Of a stretch of DNA of 64,000 nt, positions 6,666-23,361 are shown in pieces. The notes under the pieces are model-generated. The model had not been told where the DNA came from. It saw only the letters and a list, made by a program, of their open reading frames with translations, and searched no databases. How positions within the stretch are numbered: position 1 is the first letter of the stretch; every line of letters begins with the position of its first letter. Where the stretch lies: the NCBI RefSeq assembly GCF_044647545.1, contig NZ_CP172818.1, one strand, 5' to 3'. The DNA comes from Escherichia coli. GTDB lineage: Bacteria; Pseudomonadota; Gammaproteobacteria; Enterobacterales; Enterobacteriaceae. Both the position numbers and the translations under genes were made by a program.

Positions 6666-7173
6666 TGTTATTTATCGTGAGATATTGCGTGAATAATATT
6701 TTTTCATTGAAAAACAATATAGTAGGGAGCTATTGGGTGGTGGCAAGGTGTTTTATGCTGTTATTTTTATGTGCATTCTGTGCCTCCTGAATTATCACGT
6801 AAAAATCAGACCTTAAAATATCATTATTAGTACGCGGTTATTTACTTTGAACGCATTTATAAAATTATTACATAAAAATAGCGAATATTGCTAAAATCCC
6901 CGCCAACGATGTGTTGACGGGGCTGTGATTATTTTGGCAATAATACCCCGGCATAAGTATTTACCGGATGAGAAAGATATTGTTTAACGCGTTAAGGGGG
7001 GGGGGAGTGAATGTCATTCTCGAGCTCTTTATTCGCTGCCGCTCCGCAAACAGTAACCTTCCACCTTCTCCCATCCACCACCGGCCCCTCGCCTCGTAGC
7101 CGGCCGGCGAGCCCCGGCAGCCAGCATGGTCTCTGCCGGGGTACGGGTGTGGTCAGGCCCCTACTGCCCTCTG

Positions 7174-7364
<191 letters not shown>

Positions 7365-7439
7365 TCAGGCAGGGGGGGGAAACCGAGTAATAATGGGATA
7401 TAAGGTAATGGTGAAAAAAGGATAAACGAAAAATAAGAA

Positions 7440-9150
7440 AGTCTATGTATGAATACGCGCTGGAACCCATGCGGTGGCCTGCCTGCAATTTGCTAAATGT
7501 TGGCTTCAGTTAACTTTATCGTTGAGTAGATAATGTAATTGTCTTGGATAGAAAAATGTGATGTAAATGTCTATATTAAAAAGATTTTAGGATGAAAATA
7601 AACTTGATGATTAAAAAAGGCTAAAAGTAAACTAGAATGAAAATTACCAATGTAACATATAAAAATGGTGAATAAACTGATAAGGTGGGAGGAAGAAAAA
7701 TAATGATAGGAATGTGCTATTCATAAATAATATCGGGTCGGTGAGAATTGATAAATTATATGTATCCGATAGATAAAAAATGATAAACTAAGAGGGTAAT
7801 GGAATTAGTATAATGAGGTAAGTAAAATAATTGATATGATCAGAGTGATGGCTGCTATCATGAAAAGTAGTTACTGAATTATGGTCTGTAAGGTATGTAG
7901 CTCTGGGGGCATAAATTAAATAAAAGAAACTATGTTCTGAGAAAAGAAATTATTATTAATAAAATGCATTGTGTAATGATAAAAATAGTTTTTGGCCTGC
8001 ATAGCGTTGTTGATAGTGAATAATTTAGGAAAAAATAGGCCAGCAGAGTGGGTTCCCTGGTCGCGCTGTCTTTGTTTGATGAACTCTTTCAGAGTGCTGT
8101 CATCATCATTTTTCATGAGTAAACTGCGACTCTTTTCAAGGTAAAAACAGTAATCAATTTGAGATTAATTGAAAACTGGAGGGCTGGCTCCTGCATTCTG
8201 CTCCTGCCGGGCTTTTTGATTTGTTAATTTTGATTTATTGTAGGGTGGCTGGCTGCTGTGATAAACTCTTTAAGCTTGCATCTTTTAACGACCTGCGGAT
8301 TGGGGGGCAAGGTTATTTTTGCTTAGATCGTGTTGTAGATAACTGATGTTTTCTACTGTATAGAAAGGAATAATCGTTTTACGTATAGAATTGGCTTAAG
8401 TCTGTGTTGGGGTTATGCGGGTAATTTGACTGATGGGAAAAATTTGGGTAATTTCAGAATGGAATATTTCTGTAAACAGTGAGAATAAGAGGTTATCAGG
8501 TAGATTTTTATGTGGCTGCTTTTTTATCTGCAACAGGGCAGCAAGGAAACGCCATCAGCTTAAGGTCTTTGGAATGCTGATATGGCTGATAAGAGCTGTA
8601 GGTAAAATCATTGGGAAATAGCTGTATAATTACGGGTGAAGTCACAATAAAATTGGGGTGTGAGTGCGGATAGGTCTGACTTTAAGCCTGCCGAGCGGCA
8701 AGGACATCGATAACGCACATTATGGAGGTAAAGAGAATAATTGTATGATACTGTCCGTCAGTTGTCGAGAATGCGTAACCTGATAAGAATAGGAAGCGTA
8801 GTAGTTACTTACTCAGATAATGCTTTGATTGATCAGGTGAGGATTATTTGGCAGGTCGGAGCTTTAAGCAGGTAGCTTGGCTGGTGTGTGGCGATAGTGT
8901 TGGTGTGCGTGGGGTTGAAGTTGGGTGCCTTGGGGTGTGTTGGTGGGGGTGTCTTGGAAGTAAGAGAGAAAAAGTGGGTGAGTGAAGTAGTAAAAGAGAA
9001 GAGAAGAAGGGAAAAAGTAAAGGTTAAGTAATTGAAAAAATGAATAAAATGAGAAAATGGAATTGAGATAAAATAATATGAAAGGTTATGAAATGATAAA
9101 TATGTGATGAATGTATTATTTATTAATAAATATATCGCCTAAAAACAACG
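7440..9150. other. cytosine-depleted, AT-rich low-complexity non-coding block
   Basis: Plus strand is almost entirely G/A/T, with G/T-rich and G/A-rich stretches; no credible ORF, RBS or RNA gene; occupies the position of pqqL-yddB-yddA-ydeM-ydeN in K-12. Confidence 0.8.
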
Positions 9151-15145: not shown

Positions 15146-16294
15146 TTAGCGACAGATTGCTGTCTGCTGGTTCAGTAAGGTACCAGGAGAAACTTCAGGA
15201 AGCTTGTACTCGACAATACAGTTTGAGTTTTTATCTTTGCCCCATGAAACCTGTAATTTCCCTGACTGTGGAAGTCCAGTCAGATAAACCTGACCGTTTT
15301 CCGCGACAATGCTGCCATTTTTATTCTGTCCATGTGTGACAATTGCACCGAATGGAACGCTCTTATTACCGTACTTCAACGTCATTAATACTTTCCCGCC
15401 GATTTGTGCATTAAATGTTGCTCTGGCAATAGCACCGTGAGTTGGGATGACAGTGACAACGGTTTCATCCAGTTCAACATTATCTGCAAGGGAATTCGCG
15501 TTAAGAGCGACACGATTTTCTCTATATTCTGTCGCAAATGGTAATATGGCATAGCCACGCCAGTCGGTATGAATACCGGTCTGGTTCTCTATTTTGACAT
15601 TATCAGCGCCAGGAGCCTTAACCAGAACCATTGTGTCGCCCAGCGGCTGTCCAAAGGTGATGCCATCAGCATGAGCAATAATGCCACCACTCATTCCGTA
15701 ATAAATCTGGCTGCTGTCACCACTCCGACTGTAACCGATATTCGTATTACCGTAAGCTCCACGATAATTAAGAGAACTGTAACCACTGGTGCCAGACGAT
15801 GTATTACCCCCGTGGGTGTTACCGACCTGAACACTATAATTCAGGTTATTATCCGGCAGCAGAGTGCCATAAACTCCCGATAGATTGGTCATGCCGCCTT
15901 TCAAATCGTTTGACATACTGTAACTGGCGTTTGAGTTACGAAATGTCGACTGACTGTCTGTACGCATCCAATGACTGAAGGGAACATTAAGCGTAAAAGC
16001 AAGTAAATGATCCCGATCGTTTTGCCATATATTATTGGAATAGCTGTAATTCAGCGAAGTCGTAATATCACTAAACGGCACATTTAATCCAAATGATATT
16101 TGCTGGTCGCTGCGTGACGTGTTCCAGTAACTTTGGCGACTGGCACTGAAAAATGTCGTACCGTAATTTCCAAGCTGCTGAGAGATGCTTATTTGTTCCT
16201 GACCACGCTTACTGTAGAACAGATTAAAATAATCAATAAATTGTGTCTGCTCATTGCTGTCTCCGGTAGGAGGCTTGACGGTGTAACCACTCAT
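15146..16294 (-). pseudogene. ydeT: fimbrial usher C-terminal fragment (ydeT)
   Basis: 382-aa ORF resembling only the C-terminal third of an outer-membrane usher (full ushers are about 850 aa); no chaperone gene and no usher N-terminus upstream. Confidence 0.7.
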
Positions 16295-16546
16295 TCGACT
16301 GTAGGCACTGTCGGATAAGTTATAAAAACCTTGCGTAGAATAGCGATATCCTGCGACCTGGATATTGGTTCCACAACAAGTTTATTGCAGCACTTGTTGA
16401 AGAGAGTATTTGCAAAGACATTTTATGTCGCTAAATAACATGACGATTTCATTATGCATGTTATTTATAAACCGTGACTAAACAGAATATTATTGCGAAC
16501 AAGGGAAGTGTCAGGAAAGGTCAAGAGCGACCAATGGCTTATATGG

Positions 16547-16975
16547 CTATAAATCATTAGCTATAGTTAATGTTTGCCTGGTGTAACTAACACGGAATTG
16601 CTCTAAACAGATAAGTGCAGGGTTTATTAAAGCTGACCGACAGACTTTCTTAACCTGGTAATATCTCTCAGGTGACTCTCCAAACATCCGCGAATATTCC
16701 CGACAGAAATGGGATAAGCTTTCGTAACCGACAGCATAGGCTGCAGTGGTGACATCGTAATGTTCATTCAGTATCAGTCGCCTGGCTTCATTGAGGCGTA
16801 GCCATTTCTGATACCGGAGTGGACTCATTCCCGCAAGCTGTCTGAAGTGTTGATGGAAAGGGGGGCGTTCATTTGCACGCGGTTTGCCAGCCTGACTCTT
16901 CAACGCAGGGAAGATGCGGCAAACGGCAAACCTGCATACCAGCCAGCCTATATCCGGTATGCACAGGCCAATCAT
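16547..16975 (-). pseudogene. yneL: AraC-family regulator fragment (yneL)
   Basis: ORF contains only an AraC-type HTH region (…RYQKWLRLNEARRLI…GYESLSHFCREYSRMFGESP…) without a sensor domain; position matches K-12 yneL. Confidence 0.6.
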
Positions 16976-17159
16976 GAAAGAGGAGAGGCTTTATGTTCTG
17001 GAACCCTGAAGTAATAACGACGACCGGAAAATCGCTTCGCATCACTCAAATCCAATTTAACATAATATACATTATGCGCACCAACATAAACCAAGGAAGA
17101 ATCCAGTCGTTGGCGGTCATGATTGTCCTGCTCATTAACAACGACCAAAACCCCATATC

Positions 17160-18482
17160 TTACTTAATACCGTATTCTCGGCTTAACCGGTCGTGCAACC
17201 TCAACACATTGGTTTCAACTGCCGTCACCACGTTCTCCGGAAAATCTGTCGGTAATGAAGTCTTCACGTTATCCAGTGCTGCTGGAATCATTCTGGCAAA
17301 GTCACTCAGGATTTCATGCATCTGCACTTCCGGGAATCTCAGCACCTTTGCTGTCGCCAAAAAATGTCGCGGATAAATTTTATCGATTGCCGTTTTTTTG
17401 CCTTTGGATGCGTTAAGCCCCATTGCCAGTTTGAGATCGCTGATGTGTATTCCCGTACCGCCAAGGACCGGAAATGCTGAAATGATGTCGTAAAATGGCG
17501 TGAGTCGATAACTGCCGCCAGCCTGAATAAATACGGAGAAGTTTTTTGCATGACCGTCCGTTGCGCCAATCAACCACTGGAAGACCTGGAATTTCATAAA
17601 ATCATAGCGATCTTTCAGCGCCTCGCTGGACCCCATCAAAAAAGCCATGATCCGCGCGATGCCTGGGCCTCCATCTGATTCATATTTCACCGATGAAGGT
17701 AAACCGAATGTCTGACACATATCCTCCTGTGGCAAGCGAAGTAAAACCGTTCGCTCAGCATTCCAACGCCTGTCAAAACGTTCGACCGCTAACGCGCGCA
17801 CATTTCCCGCTTTAATGATTTCTGCGTCCGGAACATTCAACCCAAGTTCTTTCGCCAGCAGCAGACAGTAATACTCATTATCAACGCTTTGGCTGAGATC
17901 GAGCGTCGCATTGGGCTGCCTGATTTCGCCAATCGGTAATTTAATGATGTGCGTCGTCGGCGTTATTCCTTTCGGAATGCACCAGTCATTGCCTATTCTG
18001 AGCAGTGCTGTCTTCTCCTGTGCGCCAGCAACCGAGATGCGAAAGTCATTTTCTTCTCTAATCATGCCTAGCGGGATATCTGCTTTATAAGCCGTTAATA
18101 CTTCTTCAAGTCTGGCTTCAGTAAGCTTTTCCCATGCCATTATCGGATGCGTTACGGTTTCGTCTTCGGGTATTAACGTCACGGCACCAACGCTGTCTCG
18201 CCCTATTTCTGACAATAAATCAAACGGTTGTCTGGATTTGGCATGATAACGTTTAACGATCCGGTCACGTACAATCGGGCTATCGGGTAACAGGTTATCG
18301 AAGAAGTTAAATACGGCATCAGAGGTGATATTCCCCCTCTGCAATGGCAGCGAAAGTGACAACGGTCTGGCATAACGGCTTGCTAACCACTCCGGTGCAT
18401 ACTTAAAGGTGTGCGCGCCGTTGGCTAACTTCGTTAACTCGCCTACCCGCTGGTTGTTCATCCAAGTGACAAGTTTAGGCAT
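17160..18482 (-). CDS. hipA: HipA serine/threonine kinase toxin, 440 aa
   Basis: ORF track 459 aa; trimmed to MPKLVTWMNNQRVGELT start (440 aa) whose ATG overlaps the hipB stop by 1 nt. Confidence 0.9.
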   Translation of the reverse strand: MPKLVTWMNNQRVGELTKLANGAHTFKYAPEWLASRYARPLSLSLPLQRGNITSDAVFNFFDNLLPDSPIVRDRIVKRYHAKSRQPFDLLSEIGRDSVGAVTLIPEDETVTHPIMAWEKLTEARLEEVLTAYKADIPLGMIREENDFRISVAGAQEKTALLRIGNDWCIPKGITPTTHIIKLPIGEIRQPNATLDLSQSVDNEYYCLLLAKELGLNVPDAEIIKAGNVRALAVERFDRRWNAERTVLLRLPQEDMCQTFGLPSSVKYESDGGPGIARIMAFLMGSSEALKDRYDFMKFQVFQWLIGATDGHAKNFSVFIQAGGSYRLTPFYDIISAFPVLGGTGIHISDLKLAMGLNASKGKKTAIDKIYPRHFLATAKVLRFPEVQMHEILSDFARMIPAALDNVKTSLPTDFPENVVTAVETNVLRLHDRLSREYGIK

Positions 18483-18748
18483 TACCACTCCAGATTTTGC
18501 TGTTCTGTTGATTCTGGCGAGGCATTTTTCGCGTCGCATAGCGTCATTGAGAGTTCAAGCGACTGTAAAATCTTAAAAAATGTCGTGAGCGTGGTATTGT
18601 CAGGGTTGTTTTCGAAATTGGAAATCGTCGCCTGCTTAATACCAATTTTTTTCGCCAGCTCGCTCTGCGTCCAGCCATTTTGCTGGCGAACCAGTTTCAT
18701 TGCATTCGCCAATTGCGTTGGGCTATAGATCTTCTGAAAGCTCATCAT
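18482..18748 (-). CDS. hipB: HipB antitoxin, HTH-XRE DNA-binding protein, 88 aa
   Basis: Trimmed to MMSFQKIYSPTQLANAMKLVRQQNGWTQSELAKKIGIKQATISNFENN... (88 aa); helix-turn-helix motif; immediately upstream of hipA. Confidence 0.9.
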   Translation of the reverse strand: MMSFQKIYSPTQLANAMKLVRQQNGWTQSELAKKIGIKQATISNFENNPDNTTLTTFFKILQSLELSMTLCDAKNASPESTEQQNLEW

Positions 18749-18959
18749 GTCATACGTCCACAGCAAGTTTATCCGCTTAAGGGGATATTATAAGTTTTAT
18801 CCTTTAGTGAGGATAAGTCAATCTGGAAACACATCTTATCCGCTCTACGGGATAAACGCTGCGATATCCGCGATCGCGGATAAAAAGGAGGATTTAAAAG
18901 TCGTTTGAAGTCGGCAATATTAAGCCGCATGCATCTTCGACATGCGGCTTATACGGTTT

Positions 18960-21900
18960 ACCAGCTATATTTCACACCCAGCATGCCCTGAGTATCGCTA
19001 TAGCCTTTATCACCTAGTTGCACACCGACATTCCCCCACAGGCTAAGGTTGTTATTTACTTTCGCCTCAACCCCGGTACGTACTTCACCGAGATTACGCG
19101 CACCATCACGGCTTACGGTTTGACCATTCATCTTCACGGCGTAGACTTTGCTGTTGTTGATCCAGTTCGCTTCAATGTAAGGCTGGAACTCACGCTGTTT
19201 ACCATTGTCACGCTGGTGTAGTCGTCAGCAGAACGGTTATCGGAACTGACGCTGTTATCAAACCAGTTATACAGCGCCCAGCTGTCAACATAAGCGCCGG
19301 TCTTATTCGCATCGTTCTGATACCAGGTCGCGTACAGTCCTGCGCTGTAACCGCTGATGCGCCCATCCGATTTATAACCCACATGATTACTCTGAGTATT
19401 ACTGTGCTGATTGGCATAGCCTGCCATGACGCCGAGATGCCAGCGATCCTGCGCGTTGCTACTCCACTGCGCCAAATCGCCGCCCTTGCCATATTAATGG
19501 CAGAGTCGGAACCGAAAGCAATTTCCCCCCCACGATATCCGTCGTACCCTGATACGCCGCGGAATCGTTGTTAAGAGTCAGGATCCCGGTACCCAGTTTT
19601 GTCACATCACCGCTACCGCTGATACTGTGCGTCATCGCCCAGCTACGCTCAGTGGAGATGGTGAGCAGGCCATTATTGATAACGGAAGCATCACCCAGGT
19701 TTTTCTGCTCGTTGACGCTGAGCGCGCTGCCTGTATCAATGTTGAATTGCCCCACAAAGCGGCTATTATCGCCATCCAGCTCTACATCTGTCCTGGCGGT
19801 TGCGCTCACGATACCCTTCCCGCTTATGCCATTGCGCAGTTCGCCAGTCACGTTTTTTAGCGTTAACAGACCGTTATTGGCAATATTTCCGCTGCCTAAC
19901 CCCTGCGTATTATCGAGGCTGACTTCCGCATTTGGGCTAATGCTGGTTAACGCATTGTAGCGTGCATTAAGCCCCTCGATAGCCAGCGTTCCCCCTGTAA
20001 CATTCAGGTTTCCGCCACCTGTCAGTTCACCCTGACTGATCCCACCTTTATTTACCGTCAGCGCCCCCTCTTTGAACAAAACAGTCGAACCCATCTGCCC
20101 GGTGAATGTCTCTACCGTCTGCGTCGATCCATTAAGATCGACGATGGCCGCGTTGCTGATGTTCAGTTCCCGGGTGTTGCCAAGTGCACCATCCGCATCG
20201 GTACGTAATGTCCCCATCTGAACGTAGGTTGCCCCCTGATAGTCGTTCTGAGCGTTGGAAAGCGAAACCTGTCGCACCGTATTGATTGCCAGATCCCCTT
20301 CACCACCGATTTTTGCCGACATATCGGCCGTTGCGCCATAGGCTCCGCCATGTTCGGCTAACGTCAGCTTTTGCCCTCCATGGATGTTCAGCGCTTTCAG
20401 CCCATAGTTAACGTACAAACCATCACCTGGTGCGGTCGTGAGGCGGAATCCATAATCACCCTCGGCGACCACCGTTCCGTTTTGCGCAATGTGTAACGTT
20501 TTGTCCGCTTCCACCTCGTCGCCCTGTAAATCACGTAACGTTAATGAGCCACCCGACCCAATAACCGTTTGCGCCTTCACCAGTTGAACGCCGACATGGC
20601 TATCATCGTGTTCCAGCAAATTGAGCGTCGTCAGAGGGTTATTCGCCATGGGATCATTCCACGGTTTAGGCACGTCGATAAGCACGTCGCCCGTCCCGTT
20701 TACCTTATAGTTACGGCCTTTCCAGGTGTAGTCACTCGCGCCGACAACCAGCGTATCGACGCTGATATATCCCTCTGCAAGCGTCGCAGCAGGAATATCC
20801 GTATCGAAAATGAGCGTACCGCCATTCATGGCCAGTCCACCAATGGATTGCTCTCCCACGTTTACCGATGTGGTATTTTCAATGTCAGACTGCAACATCG
20901 CGTGAGTAAGCGCAGCGGTGTTGTCGCGTTCCAGAGTGAAGGTACTGTCTTTCAGTTGGGCAACACCGGCGAATTCAGTCCCTGTTGCATGGGTAAAGCC
21001 AAACATCTTGTCGGAGGATGACAGCTGCACTCGCATCAAGCCATCGCCTTTGAGCGCATTGGTCAGCGTGTAATCTCCTGCGCTGTTCGTTGATGCGAGA
21101 ATGTCGAGCGTACCGGGGCTTGCAATGGTGACTTCACTCGAACCCATGCCTGTTACCCCATCTGCCGTATGTGACGCAATAGTCAGGAGGCCGTCATTGA
21201 CCAGCGTTTTACCGCTATAAGTATTCCCTGCATTGAACACCGTATGGCCTGCATCATGCATCACTTTTCCGTCTTTATCGTCACCCGTAATCAGCATATC
21301 GACCTGGTAGCCGGCATCACTGTTATTGGTATGATTAAAGACAAAAACGCCTTCGCCAAGACCAAACTCCACTTTCGTCGCATTGGTAATAAACCCGGCA
21401 TCTGCCGCTACCTCACCGTGAGCAGCACCAATGTTTAGCGTTCCTACAGCAGGCTCAAAAACACCTAAGTAAACTTCTCCACCTTCGACATTCAGCGTGC
21501 CGTTATTCGTCAGGGTTAACGTACCTGTGCCAGTCGTCCCTACGTTCATATTGAATGTTTCAAGAAGAGAGTTCTGCCCATCCACCCGCACGTCGCCCTT
21601 ACTTTTGTCATTCAGAGCTATCTGTGTATCACGCGCTTTAACTATACCTCCGGTGGTAATATTCAGTTCACCCGTGCCTAATACACCGACCTGTAGCAAT
21701 TGGGCGTTAGTAGATGACGTTTTTAAATTCCAGAGACTATGCGTTGAAATATTAACTATCCCCTTACCGGAGGCATTTCCTCCGATAAATCCATAGCCCG
21801 TTGAATTAAGGGTGGCACCATTACTGACATTTACGATGCCGCTACCAAAATTACCGACATTGATACCTACAGTATCGAACGATGATGTCGCATCCATCAG

Positions 21901-23361
21901 GTTCAGTGTGCCGATACCGCTTGCTTTATCGCCCAAAAAAGTAATATTTTGCGATACGAACTTACCGCCATCGCTGATATTGAGGTTTCCGACGCCCGCA
22001 ACACCAATAGTGGTATAGACATTCTTATTGACCTCCCACATCCCCCCCGTGGTGATGCTAACCTTCCCGACGCCGGTTTCTCCATAACCGAGTGAGCTTC
22101 CTCCGTTGCTGACAACAAGCCCCTCATTACTGATATTCATTTCGCCGTGGCCGTCATAACCAAGATTAGTTCCGAGATTAGTGATAACGGAGTTCTTATC
22201 CTTAACAGTAATGTTGCCTGTGCCTGTTTCTTTCATCCCCGCAGTGATAATTCCCGAATCGACTTTGCCTTCACTAGAGACATTAAGTTCACCGTCGCCA
22301 GCATCACCGATATAGATATAGCGGAAAGCTTCGCCCGTTCCGAGGAAATTCCAATGCCCTTTATCGGTCACGTTGACGACACCGTGGGAACCGTCCTGAA
22401 CGCCCACCAATGAATATTCTTTGTTATTAATCAGTCCATTATTGGAAATATTGACTTTGCCATTACCGAAATATCCATTATAGAGTCTGCGTACCGTAAT
22501 GACAGAGTCTTGATCCTGCACATTCAGGGTTCCGATACCGGTGGCATTGCCACCGATAATCGTATTTTCAGCCGTAATTAGCCCACCCTCGCGAATAGTC
22601 GCTTCCCCAGTTCCTTGATTACCAATTTGAAATTCAATTGAGGAATCGTTATTTTTCATTAGCCACTCACCGCCCTTTTCAACGACAACCTGGCCATTAC
22701 TGCCCGCCTGATAGCCTAAAATGGCGACGATTGAACTCGTGACGTAACCCTTATCCGTAATATTTAATGAGCCCGTACCGTAACTCCCTATTTCGAATAA
22801 TTCGGTCGTCAAAACCGAGTCCTCTTCCTCAACATTAACCGTCCCGACGCCTGCAGCTTGAGTACCTAATCTTAAATAGCCTCCATCGACGTGACCCTTC
22901 TGTTTAATATTCAGCGTCCCCGTTCCGGATTGACCCACATTTAAAGGCCTTGCATTATTTCCGCTATCATACAATCGCCAGGTGCCACCCAAAACATTAA
23001 CGGTGCCCTCTGAGTCCTCATTAGCGCCAATGACGCTGGTAGTAATAGTGGTTAAGGAGGCATTACCGCCAGCCAAAATATTAAGCACTCCAGTGCCATA
23101 CCAGCCAACCAGGTAGGCATCATAAGCAACATTAGTATCAATATTGGTAATCTGATCATTATCAACTTCCAGACTTGCACCAGACGCTGAACCGCTTAGT
23201 GCCAGCAAAACACCCAGCGTCAATCTACTGAGTTTCGTTGTCAGTCCAGAGGATTTACGCAAATTAACCGTCGATGTTTTACCTACCCTGCGAGTTAATT
23301 CCGAGCAGACCTGAAATGCCTGTAGGGTGCAATTCCATATCACGCGATAGATTCTATTCAT
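18960..23361 (-). pseudogene. yneO: AIDA-I-like autotransporter adhesin, frameshifted (yneO/ydeK)
   Basis: 1300-aa passenger ORF with repetitive G/N/T-rich beta-helix repeats, plus two further ORF fragments (19134-19475, 19208-19492) carrying beta-barrel motifs; C-terminus ends ...VKYSW at 18960; at least two frame changes between 19134 and 19500. Confidence 0.8.

What the first reader, a model, noticed from the sequence alone, without database searches (positions are those of the whole stretch)
17160..18748. Intact hipBA type II toxin-antitoxin module with 1-nt stop/start overlap
The HipB stop and HipA start overlap in an ATGA arrangement, the classic translationally coupled organisation. 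HipA is the kinase implicated in persister formation through phosphorylation of GltX. This is well described and not novel, but it is the clearest defence/stress module in the window and both genes appear full length.
Basis: established knowledge. Interest (0 to 1): 0.3.

Follow-up and report, generated by a model that had tools for sequence, protein, structure and literature searches.

The report
Ordinary, intact E. coli hipBA module
This is the well-known hipBA toxin–antitoxin operon of Escherichia coli, complete and almost letter-for-letter the laboratory K-12 version, so it is a correct but ordinary annotation rather than a discovery.

Summary
The finding is real and correctly interpreted. 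On the minus strand, hipB (18748..18482, 88 aa) is 100% identical to E. coli K-12 HipB. hipA (18482..17160, 440 aa) is 437/440 identical to K-12 HipA, differing only in the C-terminal tail (S424T, G431D, S439I).

One detail is wrong. The junction reads TAATG (stop TAA and start ATG share one A at 18482), not ATGA.

All known catalytic, regulatory and high-persistence positions carry the wild-type residue, so this is not a hipA7-type allele. All four HipB operators (TATCC-N8-GGATA) are present at 18770-18882, separated by the published 10/21/10 bp. About 0.04 such matches are expected by chance in 64 kb.

The module is present in most of 5,426 complete E. coli genomes. The mechanism is taken from the literature, not tested here: HipB2-HipA2 represses the operon; Lon degrades HipB; HipA phosphorylates GltX Ser239 and triggers the stringent response.

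Two modest side observations:
- The 1,685-bp core of the module is 100% K-12-type, while the surrounding DNA is ~2.6% diverged from K-12. This is a recombination mosaic.
- The promoter lacks a 13-bp, IHF-like segment that K-12 has upstream of the first operator. This indel is a common polymorphism.

Novelty: already known. Interest: low.

The parts
18482..18748 (-). hipB: antitoxin and autorepressor, 88 aa plus TAA stop. Xre/Cro-type HTH, with C-terminal Lon degron AKNASPESTEQQNLEW ending in Trp88.
   Evidence: 100% identical to PDB 2wiu_B/3dnv/3hzi HipB. Pfam HTH_3 residues 18-69. NCBIfam NF007271 equivalog, 183.5 bits vs cut-off 79. The degron sequence matches that in PMC3376134.
17160..18482 (-). 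hipA: Ser/Thr kinase toxin, 440 aa plus TAA stop.
   Evidence: 437/440 identical to PDB 2wiu_A, with only S424T, G431D and S439I differing. Pfam Couple_hipA 6-103 and HipA_C 149-401. G22, P86, D88, S150, K181, D291, D309, D332 and the 309-314 DGHAKN motif are all wild type.
18480..18484 (-). Stop/start junction TAATG. The hipB stop TAA (18484-18482) and hipA start ATG (18482-18480) share one base.
   Evidence: Direct reading. K-12 RefSeq annotation has the same shared coordinate.
18488..18491 (-). GGAG Shine-Dalgarno for hipA, 5 nt upstream of its ATG and inside the hipB coding sequence. Consistent with translational coupling.
   Evidence: Direct reading. Coupling itself is inferred, not tested.
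18865..18882 (-). HipB operator O1, TATCCGCGATCGCGGATA
   Evidence: Exact consensus match. Identical to K-12.
18837..18854 (-). HipB operator O2, TATCCCGTAGAGCGGATA (hipB sense), 10 bp from O1
   Evidence: The spacing matches the published 10/21/10 bp (PMC4150777).
18798..18815 (-). HipB operator O3, TATCCTCACTAAAGGATA (hipB sense), 21 bp from O2. Directly preceded by a TTGACT hexamer (18821-18816).
   Evidence: The hexamer is read.
18770..18787 (-). HipB operator O4, TATCCCCTTAAGCGGATA (hipB sense), 10 bp from O3. A TATAAT hexamer (18792-18787) overlaps its first base.
Evidence: The canonical-spacing promoter scan called nothing here: TTGACT and TATAAT are 23 nt apart, so the true -35/-10 pairing is not settled by my data.
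17213..18897 (.). 1,685-bp tract (operators, hipB, hipA codons 1-423) with zero differences from E. coli K-12, inside a window otherwise ~2.65% diverged from K-12. A recombination mosaic.
   Evidence: the longest identical tract is 1,685 bp and the next longest is 439 bp. Searches support this.

Best explanation
This is the canonical chromosomal hipBA type II toxin-antitoxin operon of Escherichia coli, intact and wild type.

Shown here:
- Two full-length, translationally overlapping genes.
- HipB is identical to K-12 HipB.
- HipA is identical to K-12 HipA through residue 423, with three substitutions in the C-terminal tail.
- The full set of four HipB operators is present with the native spacing.

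Inferred from the literature on the (near-)identical K-12 proteins:
- A HipB dimer, with HipA as co-repressor in a HipA2-HipB2 complex, binds the four operators cooperatively and represses the operon.
- HipB both sequesters HipA and is itself unstable, because Lon recognises its disordered 16-residue C-terminus.
- When HipB falls, free HipA phosphorylates glutamyl-tRNA synthetase GltX on Ser239. Uncharged tRNA-Glu then activates RelA, (p)ppGpp rises, and growth stops, which gives antibiotic tolerance.
- HipA switches itself off by autophosphorylating Ser150.
- The 1-nt TAATG overlap and the internal GGAG probably couple hipA translation to hipB translation, keeping toxin synthesis dependent on and lower than antitoxin synthesis.
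For: Sequence identity to the crystallised proteins. Domain and equivalog hits above curated cut-offs. Wild-type residues at every functionally characterised position. Four exact operators, against 0.04 matches expected by chance in the window, with the published 10/21/10-bp spacing. The DNA is identical to K-12 across 17213-18897. The same locus and gene order (autotransporter, hipB, hipA, yneL remnant, ydeT) are annotated as hipB/hipA in K-12 and thousands of E. coli genomes: 5,416 of 5,426 genomes match, 4,564 over at least 80% of the query. T424 and I439 recur in other natural HipA sequences, and position 431 is G, R or D in different strains. Residues 438-440 are absent from the crystallised constructs 3fbr_A and 4yg7_D. 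Mechanism statements come from PMC8262856, PMC10627512, PMC7180214, PMC7758455, PMC3376134 and PMC3920265.
Against: Nothing in the sequence argues against it. Four caveats apply:
- No expression, toxicity or kinase assay is possible here.
- G431D was not seen in the 11 other cluster members I read, and its effect is untested.
- The promoter hexamers cannot be paired at canonical spacing.
- The physiological role of wild-type hipBA is itself debated. Deletion has no phenotype, and the link between toxin-antitoxin systems and persistence has been challenged.
Confidence: 0.97

Rival explanations
1. The module is present but functionally altered. The three C-terminal HipA substitutions, especially the rarer G431D, or the missing 13-bp IHF-like segment upstream of O1, change toxin activity, HipB binding or expression. 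The allele would then behave differently from K-12, for example with higher or lower persistence.
For: G431D was absent from the 11 other HipA cluster members read. The exact protein is on record in only about 7 contigs. K-12 carries ATCAACGCCTTA (12/13 of the IHF consensus) in the segment that is missing here. An IHF site upstream of hip is mentioned in PMC3376134.
Against: Known high-persistence mutations map to the N-terminal lobe (G22S, P86L, D88N) or to D291, and all of these are wild type here. Position 431 already tolerates G and R in other strains. T424 and I439 are common. The short promoter form occurs in roughly 2,000 or more complete E. coli genomes. I could not confirm that the published IHF site is this segment.
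Confidence: 0.08
2. The K-12-identical hipBA core is an assembly artefact (reference fill-in or K-12 contamination), and the real strain carries a different or deleted hipBA.
For: The tract is 100% K-12 in a background 2.65% diverged from K-12. The source assembly shows quality problems: about 100 single-base gaps in 7659-8055, and the closest records CP092703.1 and CP092815.1 carry Ns where the window has no base, including at 18897. hipBA is deleted or disrupted in some lineages.
Against: Independent de novo metagenome contigs (L005, L008, L009, L010) encode exactly the same mosaic HipA. L008 has no difference from the window between 17191 and 18897. The two complete chromosomes carry it too. 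The Ns sit in homopolymer runs.
Confidence: 0.02
3. The main role of the module is phage defence by abortive infection rather than antibiotic persistence, which would fit the first reader's 'defence' label.
For: Toxin-antitoxin modules in general are implicated in phage defence (abstract of PMC8262856). HipA's catalytic core weakly resembles a PADLOC candidate-system protein, PDC-M03A, at 28.9 bits over residues 288-335.
Against: No PADLOC system membership. Nothing in my searches showed anti-phage activity for E. coli hipBA. The locus is a conserved chromosomal position, not a defence island or mobile element.
Confidence: 0.03

Closest known systems
E. coli K-12 hipBA (HipA WP_001125439.1, HipB WP_001301023.1; PDB 2WIU, 3DNV, 3HZI, 4YG7)
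   Same: Same chromosomal locus and neighbours. HipB 88/88 identical. HipA 437/440 identical. DNA identical over 17213-18897, including all four operators, the TAATG junction and the GGAG site.
   Different: HipA has S424T, G431D and S439I. The stop codon is TAA rather than TGA. A 13-bp segment with an IHF-like ATCAACGCCTTA, found 16 bp upstream of O1 in K-12, is absent. Flanking DNA is about 2.6% diverged.
hipA7 and other high-persistence alleles (G22S+D291A, P86L, D88N)
   Same: Same gene.
   Different: None of these substitutions is present. This is a wild-type allele by that criterion.
HipBA of Shewanella oneidensis; HipBST/HipT and HipH (YjjJ) kinases
   Same: Same Hip kinase superfamily. 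PDB 4pu3/4pu5 match at E = 8e-30; HipT-type chains 7vkb/8ezr match at E about 2e-7.
   Different: These are distant homologues with different operators (GTGTA-N6-TACAC), different architecture (split HipS/HipT) and different targets (TrpS). The window's genes are the classical HipA/HipB, not these.

Membership tests
HipA kinase toxin (classical, clade I, E. coli K-12 type) | Full-length two-domain architecture: N-subdomain (Couple_hipA) plus HipA_C kinase core | tested here: met
   PF13657 at residues 6-103 (95.8 bits vs 22.5) and PF07804 at 149-401 (176.4 bits vs 30.5). 440 aa aligned 1-440 to 2wiu_A.
HipA kinase toxin (classical, clade I, E. coli K-12 type) | Four kinase motifs intact: Gly-rich loop 151-156 with Ser150, activation loop, catalytic motif with D309, Mg-binding D332 | tested here: met
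   ISVAGAQEKT and DGHAKN...FYDII are identical to K-12. The motif definitions come from PMC8262856 and PMC10627512. The D309/D332 roles are established knowledge (Correia et al. 2006, J Bacteriol 188:8360); I could not read that paper here.
HipA kinase toxin (classical, clade I, E. coli K-12 type) | Kinase activity on GltX Ser239 and growth arrest on expression | not testable with these tools
   Inferred from 99.3% identity to the characterised protein.
HipB antitoxin | Xre-type HTH protein that matches the HipB equivalog model above its cut-off | tested here: met
   NF007271 scores 183.5 bits vs 79. HTH_3 scores 55.7 bits. 88/88 identity to 2wiu_B.
HipB antitoxin | Disordered C-terminal Lon degron (residues 73-88) ending in Trp88 | tested here: met
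   The sequence AKNASPESTEQQNLEW is present and is identical to that studied in PMC3376134. Degradation itself was not tested.
hipBA type II TA operon | Antitoxin gene immediately upstream of the toxin gene, on the same strand, overlapping by 1 nt | tested here: met
hipBA type II TA operon | Four TATCC-N8-GGATA operators in the promoter, spaced 10/21/10 bp | tested here: met
   (positions; chance expectation 0.04). (published consensus and spacing).
hipA7-type high-persistence allele | G22S and D291A (or P86L or D88N) | tested here: not met
   G22, P86, D88 and D291 are wild type.
Known anti-phage defence system (PADLOC) | Proteins match the models of a catalogued system | tested here: not met
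   HipA gives only partial 15-29-bit hits to the candidate PDC-M03A. HipB gives only generic HTH hits.

The most novel reading that the evidence does not exclude
The hipBA core (operators through HipA codon 423, 1,685 bp) was recently swapped as a unit by homologous recombination. A K-12/phylogroup-A-type allele now sits in a lineage whose flanking DNA is at least 1.8% diverged from every complete RefSeq E. coli genome. The tract ends lie within a few bases of the promoter's upstream edge and about 50 bp before the hipA stop. If that pattern recurred across lineages, it would suggest that chromosomal toxin-antitoxin modules are exchanged as cassettes under selection, not merely by neutral mosaicism.
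Probability: 0.1. Interest if true: 0.3.

Novelty: already known. Interest (0 to 1): 0.08.

Why it matters
It matters little beyond correct annotation. hipBA is the founding persistence locus and has been characterised genetically, biochemically and structurally. This copy is wild type, so it predicts no unusual persistence phenotype. Practical points:
- The strain is not a hipA7-type high persister.
- The junction motif should be recorded as TAATG.
- The mosaic structure and the 13-bp promoter indel are ordinary population-level variation. They could serve as markers if someone studies recombination or regulatory diversity at this locus.

Tried and rejected
- The canonical sigma-70 and terminator scan of 16900-19100 found no promoter and only one weak terminator-like site inside hipA on the opposite strand. 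TTGACT (18821-18816) and TATAAT (18792-18787) are 23 nt apart, so I could not assign the promoter. The papers that map it (Black et al. 1994; Schumacher et al. 2015, PMC7502270) and the kinase-mutant paper (PMC1698217) are not held.
- I considered that hipBA might simply be ultra-conserved across E. coli, which would explain the zero-difference tract. This is rejected: alleles range from 96.4% to 100% identity.
- I considered an assembly fill-in artefact. This is rejected because independent metagenome contigs carry the same mosaic.
- I looked for the source genome among 5,426 complete RefSeq E. coli genomes. The best match was 98.2% over 14 kb. The closest records found, CP092703.1 and CP092815.1 at 99.4-99.5%, are outside that collection.
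- The PADLOC search for defence-system membership gave nothing meaningful.
- NCBIfam has no HipA equivalog HMM that this protein passes. It hits only the N-terminal domain model, plus a 27-bit sub-threshold hit to YjjJ. This is a limit of the library, not evidence against HipA identity.
- I rejected the 459-aa extended ORF (17160..18539) as a gene. It is the hipA frame read through from an in-frame ATG inside hipB.

Full report
**1. Observation**

The minus strand of 17160-18748 holds two uninterrupted ORFs.
- hipB runs 18748..18482 (88 codons plus TAA).
- hipA runs 18482..17160 (440 codons plus TAA).

Read directly, the junction is ...GAG TGG TAATG CCT AAA... The TAA stop (18484-18482) and the ATG start (18482-18480) share the single A at 18482. 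The title's '1-nt overlap' is therefore right, but 'ATGA arrangement' is wrong: the motif is TAATG. RefSeq annotates K-12 identically, with hipB ending and hipA starting on the same coordinate. A GGAG at 18491-18488 sits 5 nt upstream of the hipA ATG. This is compatible with translational coupling, which is inferred and not tested.

**2. Identity of the proteins**

HipB:
- It is 88/88 identical to the crystallised K-12 HipB (2wiu_B, 3dnv, 3hzi).
- It has HTH_3 at residues 18-69.
- It passes NCBIfam's HipB equivalog, NF007271, at 183.5 bits against a cut-off of 79.
- Its last 16 residues, AKNASPESTEQQNLEW, are exactly the Lon degron studied in PMC3376134.

HipA:
- It aligns 1-440 to K-12 HipA (2wiu_A, E = 9e-298) with three differences: S424T, G431D and S439I.
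- It has Couple_hipA (6-103) and HipA_C (149-401).
- Every functionally characterised residue is wild type. That covers Ser150 and the Gly-rich loop VAGAQEK, K181, the catalytic DGHAKN (309-314) and D332.
- The high-persistence positions G22, P86, D88 and D291 are also wild type (allele definitions).

**3. The three substitutions**

- T424 and I439 recur in other natural HipA sequences from the same 90% cluster.
- Codon 431 is GGA (Gly) in K-12, GGC (Gly) in strain 042, CGT (Arg) in strain 2014C-3075 and GAC (Asp) here, so the position is polymorphic.
- Residues 438-440 are missing from two crystallised constructs (3fbr_A, 4yg7_D).
- Known gain-of-function mutations lie in the N-terminal lobe or at D291.

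I regard the three changes as probably neutral, with G431D untested.

**4. Regulatory region**

Four exact TATCC-N8-GGATA palindromes lie at 18882-18865, 18854-18837, 18815-18798 and 18787-18770. The window holds five matches in all, against 0.04 expected; no shuffle reached five. The gaps between the four operators are 10, 21 and 10 bp, as published for E. coli (PMC4150777). The consensus is as published, and the operator sequences are identical to K-12.

The simple promoter scan called nothing. A TTGACT abuts O3 and a TATAAT abuts O4, but they are 23 nt apart, so I cannot assign the -35/-10 pair. The mapping papers were not available.

**5. Mechanism**

The mechanism is established for the K-12 proteins and inferred here by near-identity.
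- HipB2 with HipA binds the operators and autoregulates the operon.
- Lon degrades free HipB through its C-terminal tail.
- Free HipA phosphorylates GltX Ser239. This causes uncharged tRNA-Glu to accumulate, RelA to make (p)ppGpp, and the cell to arrest growth and tolerate antibiotics.
- Ser150 autophosphorylation ejects the Gly-rich loop and inactivates HipA.

One caveat comes from the literature: deleting hipBA has no phenotype, and the wider link between toxin-antitoxin systems and persistence is disputed.

**6. Distribution**

The 1,861-bp locus matches 5,416 of 5,426 complete E. coli genomes, 4,564 of them over at least 80% of its length. In some genomes hipA is interrupted by IS903B, IS1 or IS3, or is truncated or deleted. 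Examples are the O157:H7 records at 63% coverage and strain 042, which lacks hipB and the hipA 5' end. The gene order around it matches K-12: ydeP, ydeQRS, ydeT remnant, yneL remnant, hipA, hipB, ECSE_1600 autotransporter, lsrK.

**7. Mosaic structure (side finding)**

Against K-12 the window differs at 2.65% of about 38 kb of aligned positions. From 17213 to 18897 (1,685 bp) there is not one difference, and the next-longest identical tract is 439 bp. This is not species-wide conservation, because hipBA alleles span 96.4-100% identity.

The last 52 bp of hipA and the downstream DNA are of a different type, closest to strain 042 at 97.7%. Upstream of 18898 the window resembles strain 2014C-3075 rather than K-12. 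No complete RefSeq E. coli genome matches the 14-kb neighbourhood better than 98.2%.

The exact mosaic HipA protein (WP_400165255.1) occurs in two complete chromosomes, CP092703.1 and CP092815.1, which are 99.4-99.5% identical to the window locally. It also occurs in four independent metagenome contigs. That argues against an assembly fill-in. This is ordinary E. coli recombination, although the tract happens to frame the module closely.

**8. Promoter indel (side finding)**

K-12 has 13 extra bases 16 bp upstream of O1. They contain ATCAACGCCTTA, which matches 12 of 13 positions of the IHF consensus WATCAANNNNTTR. The window, 2014C-3075, CP092703.1 and CP092815.1 lack this segment. Both forms are common in E. 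coli. An IHF site upstream of hip is mentioned in PMC3376134, but I could not confirm that it is this segment.

**9. Verdict**

The module is already known and wild type. Interest is low.

Noticed in passing
window 17213-18897: This 1,685-bp tract covers the operators, hipB and hipA codons 1-423. It is 100% identical to K-12, while the rest of the window is ~2.65% diverged from K-12 and the next-longest identical tract is 439 bp. It is a recombination mosaic whose ends closely frame the toxin-antitoxin module.
   Followed up: partly
window 18897-18901 (between the autotransporter stop and operator O1): The window lacks a 13-bp segment that K-12 has 16 bp upstream of O1. That segment contains ATCAACGCCTTA, a 12/13 match to the IHF consensus. 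Both the short and long forms are common among complete E. coli genomes.
   Followed up: partly
window 16347-16364: A fifth exact TATCC-N8-GGATA palindrome (TATCCTGCGACCTGGATA) lies about 800 bp downstream of hipA, at the start of the ydeT usher remnant. It is conserved in K-12 and inside the intact usher gene of strain 2014C-3075, so it is probably coding-sequence coincidence. HipB binding there was not tested.
   Followed up: partly
window 7659-8055 (and 8072-8189): This stretch aligns to K-12 ydeM with about 100 single-base gaps in 497 columns; the missing bases are mostly C or T. The closest public records (CP092703.1, CP092815.1) carry Ns at many sites where the window has no base. This suggests a low-quality or N-stripped source assembly, so frameshift and pseudogene calls elsewhere in the window should be treated with care.
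   Followed up: partly
window 18958-23361 and beyond (minus strand), junctions at 19218/19219 and 19484/19485: The ECSE_1600-family autotransporter upstream of hipB lacks 232 bp and about 785 bp relative to K-12 and to the intact 1,806-aa gene of strain 2014C-3075. Its reading frame is broken into ORFs of 1,300, 113 and 59 aa. It is either a pseudogene or an assembly collapse.
   Followed up: partly
window 18921-18951 (minus strand): A 12-bp-stem hairpin (AAGCCGCATGTC...GCATGCGGCTT) sits just after the autotransporter stop codon. It folds at dG -19.4 kcal/mol with z = -3.75 against shuffles, and has no U-tract. It may be a terminator or insulator between the autotransporter and hipBA.
   Followed up: partly
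window 15146-16975, junction near 16372: As in K-12, the fimbrial operon downstream of hipA is truncated. The fimA-like gene, the chaperone gene and the 5' part of the usher gene, all present in strain 2014C-3075, are missing (about 3.3 kb). What remains is a ydeT usher fragment and an AraC-type HTH remnant, yneL.
   Followed up: partly
window ~6989-9050: Relative to K-12, the yddA-yddB-pqqL block, ydeN and most of ydeM have no counterpart in the window. Only short degraded ydeM matches remain.
   Followed up: no
other E. coli genomes (hits H1-H7, H74-H78; locus L004): hipA is frequently inactivated in natural E. coli. Examples are IS903B, IS1 or IS3 insertions, truncation in O157:H7, loss of hipB and the hipA 5' end in strain 042, and a SIR2-family gene next to hipB in one strain.
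   Followed up: no
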